NCBI GenBank assembly: GCA_036499185.1
Contig: DASYEF010000043.1
Span: 1-42,249, forward strand
Source: Actinomycetes bacterium
Lineage (GTDB): Bacteria; Actinomycetota; Actinomycetes; JACCUZ01
Length of the DNA stretch: 42,249 bases
Reading direction: 5' to 3'
Below, one piece after another: positions 16,542 through 18,040 of this stretch. Under the pieces are notes generated by a model. That model worked only from the letters and a program-made list of their open reading frames with translations, was not told the origin of the DNA and ran no database searches. A program made the position numbers and the translations under genes. How positions within the stretch are numbered: the first letter of the stretch is position 1; each line of letters begins with the position of its first letter.

Positions 16542-16549
16542 TAATGGGT

Positions 16550-16740
16550 CCCGCCGGGCTTGTTCTGGCAGGCTCGGCGCCCGGTAGCGGCTGGTGGGTG
16601 AGCACTCCTTTGACTTGGGCTTGGAGCCCTACGGTCAGATCGTGTCCCCGCCGGTCGTGAGGAGACCTAACCACTGCTGGGATGACGTGCCCGCCCTCGC
16701 GCGTGAGCACTTGACCATTAGGTCGTTGGGTGTCTCCTCC
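16550..16740 (+). ncRNA. candidate IS110 bridge (seek) RNA in the left non-coding end
   Basis: Non-coding stretch upstream of the transposase. It has two modules whose strands match or complement the target flanks and the element ends (see findings), plus local stems such as gggct/agccc at 16616-16628. Exact 5' and 3' ends are unknown. Confidence 0.4.
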
Positions 16741-16779
16741 CGCTATCGACTGTCAGGTCGATTAGAGAGGCAGGGGCCA

Positions 16780-18018
16780 GTGCTGTTCGTGGGAGACGAC
16801 TGGGCCGAGGACCACCACGACGTGGAGATCGTCGACGAGGCGGGTCATCGGCTGTCGAGGGCTCGGTTGCCGGAGGGCATCGAGGGCATCGCTCGGCTGC
16901 ATGGGTTGCTGGCTGAGCACGCGCCGCCGGAGTGGGAGCAGCTGGAGCCCGCCGATGCTGCGGGCCGGGTGCTGGTCGGGATCGAGACCGACCGCGGCCC
17001 GTGGGTGCAGGCGCTGGTCGCCGCGGGCTACGCCGTCCTGGCGATCAACCCGATGTCGGTGGCCCGCTACCGAGAACGGCACTCCACTTCCGGCGCCAAG
17101 TCCGACGCCGGGGACGCGCACGTGTTGGCCGAGATCGTGCGCCTGGACCGGGATCATCACCGCCGGCTGGCCGGTGACAGTGACCTGGCCGAGGCGATCA
17201 AGCTGCTGGCCCGGACCCATCAGACGCTGATCTGGGACCGCCAGCGGCAGGTGTTGCGGCTGCGGGCGTTGCTGCGGGAGTTCTTCCCCGCCGCGCTGAG
17301 CGCGTTCCCGGACCTGACCGCGCCGGACGCCCTCGAGCTGCTGTCCCGGGCGCCGGGTCCGGGCCCGGCCGGGAGGCTGTCGACCACCACGATCGCCGGC
17401 GCGATGCGCCGGGCCCGCCGTCGTGACGTCGAGACCAAGGCCCCGGCGTTGCGCAGCCTGCTGCGCGCGCCCGCCCTGCGCCAGCCGCCGGTGGTCGAGG
17501 ACGCCTATGCCGCCTCGGTGCAGGCGCTGCTGCCGCTGATCGCGGTGCTGAACACCCAGATCGGCCAACTTGAAGGGCAGGTCGGTGAGCATTTTGGCCG
17601 GCACCCGGCCGCTGAGGTGATCACCAGCCAGCCCGGTCTCGGTGTCATCCTCGGCGCCCGGGTGCTCGCCGAGTTCGGCGACGACCCCGACCGCTACGCC
17701 GACGCCCGCGCGCGCAAGAACTACTCCGGGCAGTCCCCGATCACCCGAGCCTCGGGCACCAAGAAAGTCGTCCTGGCCCGCTACGCGCGCAACCATCGCC
17801 TCGCCGACGCCCTGCACCAGCAGGCGTTCTGCGCGCTGACCGCCTCACCCGGCGCCCGCGCCTACTACGACGCTCTGCGTGCCCGCGGCAAAGGACACCA
17901 CACCGCGCTGCGCCAGCTCGCCAACCGACTCGTCGGCATCCTGCACGGCTGCCTACACACCGGCATCCCCTACGACGAACACCAAGCCTGGCCCTCCGCC
18001 AGCGACCTCGTCGCTTGA
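16780..18018 (+). CDS. IS110 family transposase (DEDD-type recombinase)
   Basis: VLFVGDDWAEDHHDVEIVDEAGHRLSRARLPEGIEGIARLHGLLAEH is the N-terminal RuvC-like domain. QPGLGVILGARVLAEFGDDPDRYADARARKNYSGQSPITRASGTKKVVLARYARNHRLADALHQQAF is the C-terminal Transposase_20-like domain. GTG 16780 follows AGAGAGG. Confidence 0.9.
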   Translation: MLFVGDDWAEDHHDVEIVDEAGHRLSRARLPEGIEGIARLHGLLAEHAPPEWEQLEPADAAGRVLVGIETDRGPWVQALVAAGYAVLAINPMSVARYRERHSTSGAKSDAGDAHVLAEIVRLDRDHHRRLAGDSDLAEAIKLLARTHQTLIWDRQRQVLRLRALLREFFPAALSAFPDLTAPDALELLSRAPGPGPAGRLSTTTIAGAMRRARRRDVETKAPALRSLLRAPALRQPPVVEDAYAASVQALLPLIAVLNTQIGQLEGQVGEHFGRHPAAEVITSQPGLGVILGARVLAEFGDDPDRYADARARKNYSGQSPITRASGTKKVVLARYARNHRLADALHQQAFCALTASPGARAYYDALRARGKGHHTALRQLANRLVGILHGCLHTGIPYDEHQAWPSASDLVA

Positions 18019-18040
18019 CCCGTCAGCACCTGGGATGTCT

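What the first reader, a model, noticed from the sequence alone, without database searches (positions are those of the whole stretch)
16542..18040. IS110-family element with nucleotide-resolved ends and a promoter assembled only on circularisation
Seen in sequence:
- The left junction reads ...ggcgctcTTGACCT|aatgggtcc.
- The right junction reads ...cacctgggatgtCT|gaccgcgccacc.
- Removing 16542-18040 gives TTGACCTGACCGCGCC. That is 15/16 identical to TTGACCTGAGCGCGCC in the uninterrupted sister repeat (reverse complement of 16267-16282), and close to TTGACCTAACGCGCGCC at 18101-18117.
- This supports a precise, duplication-free insertion with a shared CT core, as expected for IS110-type recombination.
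- Joining right end to left end gives TTGACC (18015-18020), 17 nt, then TCT|AAT (18038-18040 plus 16542-16544). That is a near-consensus -35/-10 pair that does not exist in the integrated form.

Established knowledge: IS110-family elements excise as circles whose junction forms a strong promoter driving the non-coding RNA and the recombinase.

The element looks intact and potentially active.
Basis: partly seen in the sequence, partly recalled or inferred. Interest (0 to 1): 0.65.

Follow-up and report, generated by a model that had tools for sequence, protein, structure and literature searches.

The report
IS110 insertion sequence with bridge RNA
This is a complete 1,498-bp mobile element of the well-known IS110 family, carrying a guide ("bridge") RNA whose loops match the exact spot it inserted into, so it is a clean textbook example and not a new kind of system.

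Summary

- **Ends.** The element spans 16543-18040 (1,498 bp) with a shared CT core (16541-42 and 18039-40). About 130 relatives lose homology exactly at ...TGGGATGTCT and at CT|AATGRG.
- **Insertion.** Twelve loci from close relatives of the host carry the uninterrupted site CTCTTGACCTGACC between rsmI and an aminotransferase gene. The insertion is therefore precise and duplication-free.
- **Recombinase.** The 412-aa protein has both IS110 domains and all catalytic residues (D7, E69, D109, D112, S325).
The 237-nt left end encodes a canonical bridge RNA. One loop matches the target: RTG 7/7, and LTG 6 identities plus 2 wobbles of 9. The other loop matches the element's joined ends. Handshake guides are in place.
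- **Family support.** Guide and flank covary across 94 relatives, and 46 base pairs are supported by covariation.
- **Junction promoter.** TTGACN, 17-18 nt, then TCT|AAT is conserved family-wide. Its -10 lacks the usual A at position 2, and neither transcription nor circles were observed.

Verdict: a new member of a known kind. Interest is low to moderate.

The parts
16534..16542 (+). Left half of the target plus the CT core (TCTTGAC-CT), which is host DNA
   Evidence: Sequence. It is contiguous with GACCG in the empty sites of relatives L163-L174.
16543..18040 (+). IS110-group insertion sequence, 1,498 bp. It is drawn with the CT core copy at its right end and could equally be written 16541-18038.
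   Evidence: Family-wide end of homology at CT|AATGRG and at TGGGATGTCT|. Relatives measure 1,481-1,527 bp. Empty-site comparison.
16543..16779 (+). Non-coding left end (237 nt) that encodes the bridge RNA
   Evidence: The left end is long and the right end short (22 nt), the layout of the IS110 group (PMC11208160). Conserved sequence and structure in alignment A1.
16553..16578 (+). 5' stem-loop of the bridge RNA
   Evidence: Minimum-free-energy fold. 82.6% of cells pair across 82 relatives, against 74.7% in shuffles and 14-61% when partners are slid. Support is moderate.
16583..16589 (+). 5' strand of an outer helix (GGTAGCG) that encloses both binding loops. It pairs with 16741-16747.
   Evidence: RNAalifold and pair counts: 96.5% paired. 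One pair swaps C-G (34 sequences) and G-C (32 sequences).
16590..16655 (+). Target-binding loop module: stem 16590-16605/16642-16655, LTG, hairpin 16617-16629, RTG
   Evidence: Helices 2 and 3 are 98% paired, with 10 pairs showing double changes. The layout is stem, LTG, stem-loop, RTG, as in IS621 (PMC11208158).
16608..16616 (+). Left target guide, CUUUGACUU. It is the same sense as TCTTGACCT and pairs with the bottom strand.
   Evidence: 6 identities plus 2 U:G wobbles of 9. Across the family, 5.21 of 7 positions match, against 3.03 (sd 0.10) when guides and flanks are permuted.
16632..16638 (+). Right target guide, CGGUCAG. It is the reverse complement of CTGACCG (core plus the 5 nt right of the insertion).
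   Evidence: 7/7 match. Across the family, 4.54 of 5 non-core positions match, against 2.05 (sd 0.11) permuted.
16639..16640 (+). Handshake guide of the target loop (AU), opposite donor positions 6-7 (GT)
   Evidence: A:T plus U:G. The family uses AU in 56 loci and AC in 38. The concept comes from PMC11208158.
16659..16740 (+). Donor-binding loop module: stem 16659-16665/16734-16740, LDG, hairpin 16687-16710, RDG
   Evidence: Helices 4 and 7 have 10 pairs with double changes. Helices 5 and 6 are invariant.
16677..16686 (+). Left donor guide, CUGGGAUGAC. It is the same sense as the right end CTGGGATGTC(T).
   Evidence: 8 contiguous identities plus the core C. The family consensus is TGGGATG(T/A)CGT.
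16713..16721 (+). Right donor guide, GACCAUUAG. CCAUUAG is the reverse complement of CTAATGG (core plus the first 5 nt of the left end).
   Evidence: CATTAG is invariant in 82 relatives.
16722..16724 (+). Handshake guide of the donor loop (GUC), the reverse complement of target positions 5-7 (GAC)
   Evidence: 3/3 match. Across the family, 1.35 of 2 positions match, against 0.74 (sd 0.06) permuted.
16741..16747 (+). 3' strand of the outer helix (CGCTATC)
16780..18018 (+). Recombinase gene (GTG start, 412 aa, TGA stop) with residues D7, E69, D109, D112 and S325
   Evidence: Pfam PF01548 at 4e-30 and PF02371 at 3e-11. NCBIfam NF033542 at 166.5 bits against a cutoff of 140. IS621 8wt6 at 2e-12. 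Catalytic residues invariant in at least 118 of 120 homologues.
18015..18020 (+). -35-like hexamer TTGACC, overlapping the stop codon
   Evidence: TTGACN in 136 of 136 relatives. T ends the last sense codon in 134 of 135 genes, against 8% T3 elsewhere.
18030..18040 (+). Right-end terminus: left donor half plus the CT core (CTGGGATGT-CT). TCT (18038-40) is the first half of the junction -10.
   Evidence: Near-invariant in 108-136 relatives.
18041..18045 (+). Right half of the target (GACCG), which is host DNA
   Evidence: Complementary to the RTG. Contiguous with the left half in the empty sites.

Best explanation
Positions 16543-18040 are an intact IS110-group insertion sequence, that is, a bridge-RNA-guided DEDD/serine recombinase element.

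Shown:
- It lies in a repeat unit of the rsmI-aminotransferase spacer, exactly at a CT dinucleotide, with no duplication.
- Its 237-nt left end encodes a structured RNA with two internal loops.
- The first loop carries guides matching the two strands of the target TCTTGAC-CT-GACCG.
- The second loop carries guides matching the element's own joined ends CTGGGATGT-CT-AATGG.
- Two short handshake guides match the non-cognate partner.

Inferred from IS621 work (PMC11208160, PMC11208158):
- The element excises as a circle.
- Joining right end to left end places the -35 (TTGACC, overlapping the stop codon) 17 nt from TCT|AAT. This would transcribe the bridge RNA and probably the recombinase.
- Recombinase dimers loaded on the two loops synapse target and donor, cleave after the CT core through a phosphoserine intermediate (S325 with D7, E69, D109, D112), exchange top strands and then bottom strands.
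- In the integrated copy the -35 is separated from the -10, so expression should be low.
For: - Protein family and catalytic residues.
- Ends: homology in about 130 relatives stops at ...TGGGATGTCT and at CT|AATGRG. The closest relative with DNA, L161 (86% nt), diverges 4 nt after the same CT.
- Insertion: 12 related loci carry the uninterrupted site, none carries the element, and the flanks are colinear.
- Guides in the window: RTG 7/7; LTG 6 identities plus 2 wobbles of 9; RDG 7 contiguous; LDG 8 plus the core C; donor-loop handshake 3/3.
- Among all TTG[AC]CCT sites in the window, only the used one has RTG 7/7.
- Family covariation of guides with flanks, 94 loci: RTG 4.54/5 against 2.05; LTG 5.21/7 against 3.03; handshake 1.35/2 against 0.74. 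No permutation out of 1,000 came close.
- RNA structure: 46 pairs, 97.1% paired against 86.8% in shuffles and 37-49% slid; 386 double-change cells against 140.
- Promoter: TTGACN, 17 or 18 nt, then TCTAAT in 111 of 117 relatives. There is a synonymous-site T in 134 of 135 genes, and the spacer has a fixed length but variable sequence.
- No promoter-like site in the integrated form.
Against: - There is no direct evidence of activity. The window holds a single copy, and the exact protein occurs on this contig only.
- No circle junction was found in the 174 loci held at the time or in viral contigs.
- There are no transcript data.
- The junction -10 (TCTAAT) lacks the A at position 2 that sigma-70/SigA-type -10 boxes normally need. 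Its conservation is confounded with donor recognition, because it overlaps the core and the right donor half.
- The LTG has one true mismatch and two wobbles, including U opposite the core C. The LDG has two mismatches.
- No Rfam 15 family matched the left end even at E up to 10, so 'bridge RNA' rests on my own comparison with the published architecture.
Confidence: 0.9

Rival explanations
1. The element is a correctly identified IS110 member, but it is now an immobile relic. It inserted once and can no longer excise or transpose.
For: It is a single copy in 42 kb, and the protein is unique to this contig. The LTG and LDG are imperfect. The window's -35 is TTGACC, whereas most of the family has TTGACA (6 of 136 against 111 of 136). 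No circle junction was found.
Against: The ORF is uninterrupted and all five catalytic residues are kept. All helices of the RNA pair in the window sequence. The RTG and the donor-loop handshake are perfect. Close relatives lack the insertion, which argues that it is recent.
Confidence: 0.2
2. The conserved TTGACN, 17 nt, TCT|AAT arrangement is not a promoter. It reflects the stop codon and C-terminus together with the donor sequence read by the bridge RNA. The RNA and recombinase would then be transcribed from elsewhere, for example by read-through or from an internal left-end promoter.
For: TCTAAT overlaps the core and the right donor half, which are constrained anyway. It has C at position 2 and would fail the scan rule used. 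TGA lies inside the -35. No transcription data exist.
Against: The T completing TTGAC is a synonymous third position, kept in 134 of 135 genes against 8% T3 elsewhere. The two bases after the stop codon (CA) are conserved in 110 of 135. The spacer is fixed at 17-18 nt while eight of its positions vary freely. These features lie outside the roughly 11-nt donor footprint. IS621 uses the same arrangement, with a -35 in the right end (PMC11208160).
Confidence: 0.2
3. The sequence is ancestral at this locus, and the relatives lost it by deletion, so it is not an insertion.
For: The spacer is a variable repeat cluster in which deletions clearly happen. L162 has only 88 nt, and unit numbers differ between loci.
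Against: All 12 relatives with the cluster would have to delete exactly 16543-18040 and restore a motif that matches the sister repeats. The segment is a complete mobile element whose guides specify that junction.
Confidence: 0.02
4. The structured left end is only a cis-regulatory leader of the recombinase mRNA and not a guide RNA.
For: It lies directly upstream of the gene. No Rfam family matched it.
Against: Loop nucleotides covary with the flanking host DNA, which differs from locus to locus. A leader has no reason to track the insertion site.
Confidence: 0.02

Closest known systems
IS621 (E. coli), the reference bridge-RNA recombinase (PMC11208160, PMC11208158; PDB 8wt6)
   Same: - Two-domain DEDD plus serine recombinase.
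- Bridge RNA encoded in a long left end.
- Order of 5' stem-loop, target loop, donor loop.
[quoted passage not shown]
- CT core, handshake guides, and a -35 in the right end with the promoter rebuilt across the core.
- Insertion into a repeated extragenic sequence with no duplication.
   Different: - The protein is only distantly related: PDB phmmer 2e-12, mostly in the Tnp domain. It is 412 aa against a 328-residue PDB chain.
- The RNA is longer, about 165 nt from 16583 to 16747 plus the 5' stem-loop.
- A 7-bp outer helix encloses both loops, and only 3 nt separate them. IS621 has an 11-nt flexible linker.
- The RTG is 7 nt here, against 4 nt in wild-type IS621.
- The host is a high-GC actinomycete.
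Unnamed actinobacterial IS110-family elements (Nakamurella, Micromonospora, Actinoplanes, Nocardioides, Rhodococcus and others; L001-L160), annotated only as 'IS110 family transposase'
   Same: - 60-72% aa identity in those genomes, and 88-90% to two metagenome proteins.
- The same termini (AATGRG ... TGGGATGTCT), the same RNA architecture, and the same junction -35, spacer and -10.
   Different: - The guides and target differ. No relative in hand shares this LTG/RTG pair.
- The exact element was not found elsewhere.
IS1111 group of the IS110 family
   Same: The same recombinase family, and RNA-guided (PMC11208160).
   Different: IS1111 elements carry the bridge RNA in a long right end and have 7-17-bp sub-terminal inverted repeats. 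Here the left end is 237 nt, the right end is 22 nt, and the RNA is in the left end.
ISPpu9 / ISPpu10 (Pseudomonas putida), IS110-family elements inserted in REP sequences (PMC12288879; bioRxiv 10.64898/2026.03.19.712850, abstracts only)
   Same: Insertion into repeated extragenic sequences.
   Different: Different host phylum. ISPpu10 is reported to have a distinct bridge RNA architecture. Sequences were not compared here.

Membership tests
IS110 family (insertion sequences) | Recombinase with an N-terminal DEDD RuvC-like domain (PF01548) and a C-terminal Tnp domain (PF02371) | tested here: met
   PF01548 at 4.1e-30 over residues 4-170, and PF02371 at 3.2e-11 over residues 279-363. NF033542 at 166.5 bits against a cutoff of 140.
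IS110 family (insertion sequences) | Catalytic D-E-D-D plus the conserved serine (IS621 D11, E60, D102, D105, S241) | tested here: met
   D7, E69, D109, D112 and S325 (plus G326) are present, and invariant in 118-120 of 120 homologues. The motif correspondence to IS621 is partly by eye from the alignment.
IS110 family (insertion sequences) | Insertion without target-site duplication, with a short core shared by donor and target | tested here: met
   The empty site is CTCTTGAC-CT-GACC in 12 related loci. The occupied site has CT at both junctions and nothing else repeated.
IS110 group (as opposed to the IS1111 group) | Long non-coding left end that holds the RNA, short right end, no long sub-terminal inverted repeats | tested here: met
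   The left end is 237 nt and the right end 22 nt. The RNA lies in the left end. No long inverted repeat between the ends appears in the repeat search.
Bridge RNA | Two internal loops, each arranged as stem, 5' guide, stem-loop, 3' guide, with the target loop first and the donor loop second | tested here: met
   Consensus structure with 46 pairs, 97.1% paired, and 24 pairs with compensatory changes. Mapped to the window.
Bridge RNA | The 5' guide is the same sense as the left half plus core, and the 3' guide is antisense to the core plus right half, for both target and donor | tested here: met
   Window: LTG 6+2 of 9, RTG 7/7, LDG 8 plus the core C, RDG 7/7 contiguous.
Bridge RNA | Guides covary with the insertion site across orthologues | tested here: met
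   RTG 4.54/5 against 2.05 (sd 0.11), and LTG 5.21/7 against 3.03 (sd 0.10), over 94 loci and 1,000 permutations.
Bridge RNA | Handshake guides complementary to positions 6-7 of the non-cognate DNA | tested here: met
   The donor-loop handshake guide GUC matches target GAC 3/3. The family value is 1.35/2 against 0.74. The target-loop handshake guide AU or AC faces donor GT.
Bridge RNA | The RNA binds the recombinase and directs recombination | not testable with these tools
   This needs biochemistry or genetics.
IS110 transposition cycle | Excised circular intermediate whose RE-LE junction rebuilds a promoter | tested here: inconclusive
   The sequence elements are present and conserved family-wide and absent from the integrated form. 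However, the -10 lacks A at position 2, no circle junction was found, and there is no transcript evidence.
Rfam families | Match of the left end to a curated RNA family | tested here: not met
   There was no hit in 16543-16779 at E up to 10. No Rfam 15 family matched at that threshold, so this says nothing against the bridge RNA assignment.

The most novel reading that the evidence does not exclude
The actinobacterial clade to which this element belongs may use a bridge RNA with a distinct topology. A covariation-supported 7-bp outer helix (16583-89 / 16741-47) closes a three-way junction that holds the target loop and donor loop only 3 nt apart. In IS621 the two loops sit on a flexible linker and act from different RNA molecules. 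If the helix forms in the active complex, it would constrain how one RNA can serve a synaptic complex. Separately, the element's landing pad is a strain-variable cluster of about 73-nt repeats with several near-cognate sites. This could allow bridge-RNA-mediated inversion or deletion within the spacer.
Probability: 0.15. Interest if true: 0.4.

Novelty: new member of a known kind. Interest (0 to 1): 0.25.

Why it matters
Scientifically this is a confirmation, not a discovery. It shows that the published bridge-RNA rules (two loops, dual-strand guides, CT core, handshake guides, junction promoter) can be read off at single-nucleotide resolution. The example is an uncatalogued element from an uncultured high-GC actinomycete, with the empty site available in sister strains as an independent check.

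Practically, it provides four things:
- A fully annotated natural target/donor/guide set for a 412-aa recombinase clade that is distant from IS621.
- An 82-sequence structural alignment of that clade's RNA.
- Evidence that the -35 is maintained at a synonymous site.
- A warning for annotators that the 237 nt upstream of such 'IS110 family transposase' genes is a functional RNA.

The insertion also separates rsmI from the aminotransferase and metG genes, which are only 88 nt apart in one relative. It may therefore have polar effects on those genes.

Tried and rejected
- **Exact-protein lookup** found no other contig. The protein is unique to this contig, so I could not compare termini of other copies of the same element.
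- **The 90%-identical relative P0002** has no retrievable DNA. The 88% relative, L161, lacks the left-end start.
- **Rfam** at E up to 10 gave nothing for the left end.
- **Circle junction or tandem copies:** 13- to 16-mers spanning RE|LE are absent from the 174 loci held at the time. The 113 exact 14-mer hits in IMG/VR are chance matches in low-GC DNA with no IS context.
- **Named IS relatives:** the plasmid database gives only 'IS110 family transposase', at 64% identity or less. ISfinder is not available.
- **Host repeat as a dispersed family:** no copy elsewhere in the window.
- **Alternative -10 boxes** with A at position 2 and T at position 6 around the junction: none exists (by inspection of the junction sequence printed).
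- **Fortuitous promoter** from the target's own TTGACC plus left-end sequence: the hexamers at 17-18 nt are CTTGTT and TTGTTC, so this was rejected.
- **Rejected readings:** the long 474-aa ORF from 16594 (it runs through the conserved RNA; relatives start at the position of GTG 16780); deletion in relatives instead of insertion here; and a cis-regulatory leader.
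Full report
**Observation.** I read 16100-18300 directly.
- The left junction is GGCGCTCTTGACCT|AATGGGTCC.
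- The right junction is CACCTGGGATGTCT|GACCGCGCC, with CT at 18039-18040.
- CT also precedes the left end (16541-42).
- Deleting 16543-18040 gives TTGACCTGACCGCGCC. This is 15/16 identical to the reverse complement of 16267-16282 and similar to 18101-18117.
- TTGACC (18015-20), 17 nt, then TCT + AAT is correct.
- The integrated left junction has no -35 at the right distance, and the scan finds no sigma-70-like site in 16000-18200.

**The gene.**
- GTG 16780 to TGA 18018 encodes 412 aa with PF01548 (4e-30) and PF02371 (3e-11).
- It passes NCBI's 'IS110 family RNA-guided transposase' model at 166.5 bits against a cutoff of 140.
- Its only solved relatives are IS621 and ISCro4.
- D7, E69, D109, D112 and S325-G326 correspond to the IS621 catalytic set named in PMC11208158. 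They are invariant in 118-120 of 120 homologues.
- The exact protein is known only from this 42,249-bp contig. The nearest relatives are 90% and 88% identical metagenome proteins.

**Ends, from relatives.** I fetched 160 loci encoding 60-72% identical recombinases from actinobacterial genomes and metagenomes and located each gene.
- Downstream of the stop codon almost all read gcTTGACA, about 10 variable nt, (C/A)TGGGATGTCT. Similarity ends immediately after CT.
- Upstream, similarity begins at CT|AATG(G/A)G.
- Element lengths are 1,481-1,527 bp, and the window element is 1,498 bp.
- The closest relative with DNA (L161, 86% nt) aligns up to 4 nt beyond the same CT.

**Empty site.** RsmI proteins 93-97% identical to the window's neighbour led to 13 loci with the same gene order: rsmI, aminotransferase, metG.
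- Twelve of them contain the uninterrupted sequence GGTCAGGTCAAGAG. This is the reverse complement of CTCTTGACCTGACC, at the equivalent position. None contains the element.
- An alignment of the window minus 16543-18040 with L163 and L165 is colinear across the junction.

**The bridge RNA.** Durrant et al. (PMC11208160) and Hiraizumi et al. (PMC11208158) define the following architecture:
- a 5' stem-loop;
- a second loop doing the same for the donor;
- two-nucleotide handshake guides matching positions 6-7 of the other DNA.

The window matches all of these:

| Guide | Coordinates | RNA sequence | Partner | Match |
|---|---|---|---|---|
| LTG | 16608-16 | CUUUGACUU | TCTTGACCT | 6 identities, 2 U:G wobbles, 1 mismatch |
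| RTG | 16632-38 | CGGUCAG | CTGACCG (reverse complement) | 7/7 |
| Target-loop handshake | 16639-40 | AU | donor GT | A:T plus U:G |
| LDG | 16677-86 | CUGGGAUGAC | CTGGGATGTC | 8 contiguous identities plus the core C |
| RDG | 16713-21 | GACCAUUAG | CTAATGG (via CCAUUAG) | 7 contiguous |
| Donor-loop handshake | 16722-24 | GUC | target GAC (reverse complement) | 3/3 |

Among all TTG[AC]CCT sites in the window, only the used site has a 7/7 RTG match. The sister repeat at 16267-82 scores 6/7.

**Family tests.**
- Across 94 loci with both flanks, the guides track each element's own flanks: RTG 4.54/5 against 2.05 (sd 0.11) when guides and flanks are permuted; LTG 5.21/7 against 3.03 (sd 0.10); donor-loop handshake 1.35/2 against 0.74 (sd 0.06).
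- An 82-sequence alignment (A1) gives a consensus of 46 pairs.
- 97.1% of cells are paired, against 86.8% in shuffles and 37-49% when partners are slid. There are 386 double-change cells against 140.
- The 5' stem-loop has moderate support.
- A 7-bp outer helix (16583-89 / 16741-47) encloses both loops. It shows a clean C-G/G-C swap in 34 against 32 sequences.

**Junction promoter.** Figures come from 136 relatives.
- The -35 is TTGACN in all of them: TTGACA in 111, and TTGACC, as in the window, in 6.
- The TGA stop codon forms bases 2-4 of that hexamer in 134.
- The spacer to the hexamer formed by the last three and first three element bases is 17 nt in 108 relatives and 18 nt in 28.
- That hexamer is TCTAAT in 111 of 117.
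- The last sense codon ends in T in 134 of 135 genes, although T is only 8% of other third positions.
- Eight spacer positions vary freely while the length is fixed.
- This argues for selection on a -35 at a set distance from the junction, as reported for IS621.
- Against it, TCTAAT has C where -10 boxes almost always have A. It also overlaps bases constrained by donor recognition. No transcript or circle evidence exists.
- I rate the promoter as likely, at about 0.75 to 0.8, but it is inferred.

**Host context.**
- The target lies in a cluster of about 73-nt units in direct and inverted orientation.
- The cluster is confined to this spacer within the window.
- Unit number varies between strains, and the cluster is absent from one relative.
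- Insertion into repeated extragenic sequence is typical of the family (PMC11208160, PMC12288879).

**Verdict.** Activity is plausible but not shown. The mechanism is the published one, and the element itself is uncatalogued, so it is a new member of a known kind. Interest is 0.25.

Noticed in passing
window 17628-17709 (-): There is an Rfam Ms_AS-4 (RF02464, 'Actinobacteria sRNA') hit at 71.9 bits, above the gathering score of 50. It lies antisense to the most conserved part of the Transposase_20 coding region. The family may simply capture antisense strands of IS110-type transposase genes, and the hit may not be a conserved sRNA.
   Followed up: no
window 16053-16542 and 18041-18149; L162-L174: The rsmI-aminotransferase spacer is a cluster of about 73-nt units in direct and inverted orientation around a central palindrome. 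Unit number differs between close relatives. One relative (L162) has only an 88-nt spacer with no cluster. There is no copy elsewhere in the window and no Rfam match. Its nature is unknown; it may be REP- or MITE-like.
   Followed up: partly
window 16583-16589 with 16741-16747: A 7-bp outer helix encloses the target and donor loops of the bridge RNA, leaving only 3 nt between them. It is supported by a C-G/G-C swap in 34 against 32 sequences. The IS621 text I read describes a flexible linker and mentions no enclosing helix.
   Followed up: partly
L011, L012, L117 and other relatives, right flanks: Many relatives sit at ...CGGATCT|GCCGC... and have a second CCGGATCTGCCG about 35-40 nt downstream. 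This suggests that sub-clade also targets paired or repeated extragenic motifs shared across several genera.
   Followed up: no
L076: The left and right ends of this relative are 3,702 nt apart, and the reading frame runs on to 5929. It may carry an inserted sequence or a fused ORF.
   Followed up: no
window 16780-18018, residues 247-372: The Tnp domain gives a weak NCBIfam hit to the TIGR-Tas RNA-guided endonuclease model NF052498 (24 bits, far below the cutoff of 100).
   Followed up: no
window 17308-17320 (+): A near-target sequence, CCGGACCTGACCG, lies inside the element's own recombinase gene, with the core plus right half identical to the real target. It is probably coincidence. The window has 5 sites with 2 or fewer mismatches, against 1.7 expected by chance.
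   Followed up: no
window 14874-19025: The element lies in the opposite orientation to rsmI and the aminotransferase/metG genes, which are only 88 nt apart in L162. It may interrupt co-transcription of these genes. This is inference only.
   Followed up: no
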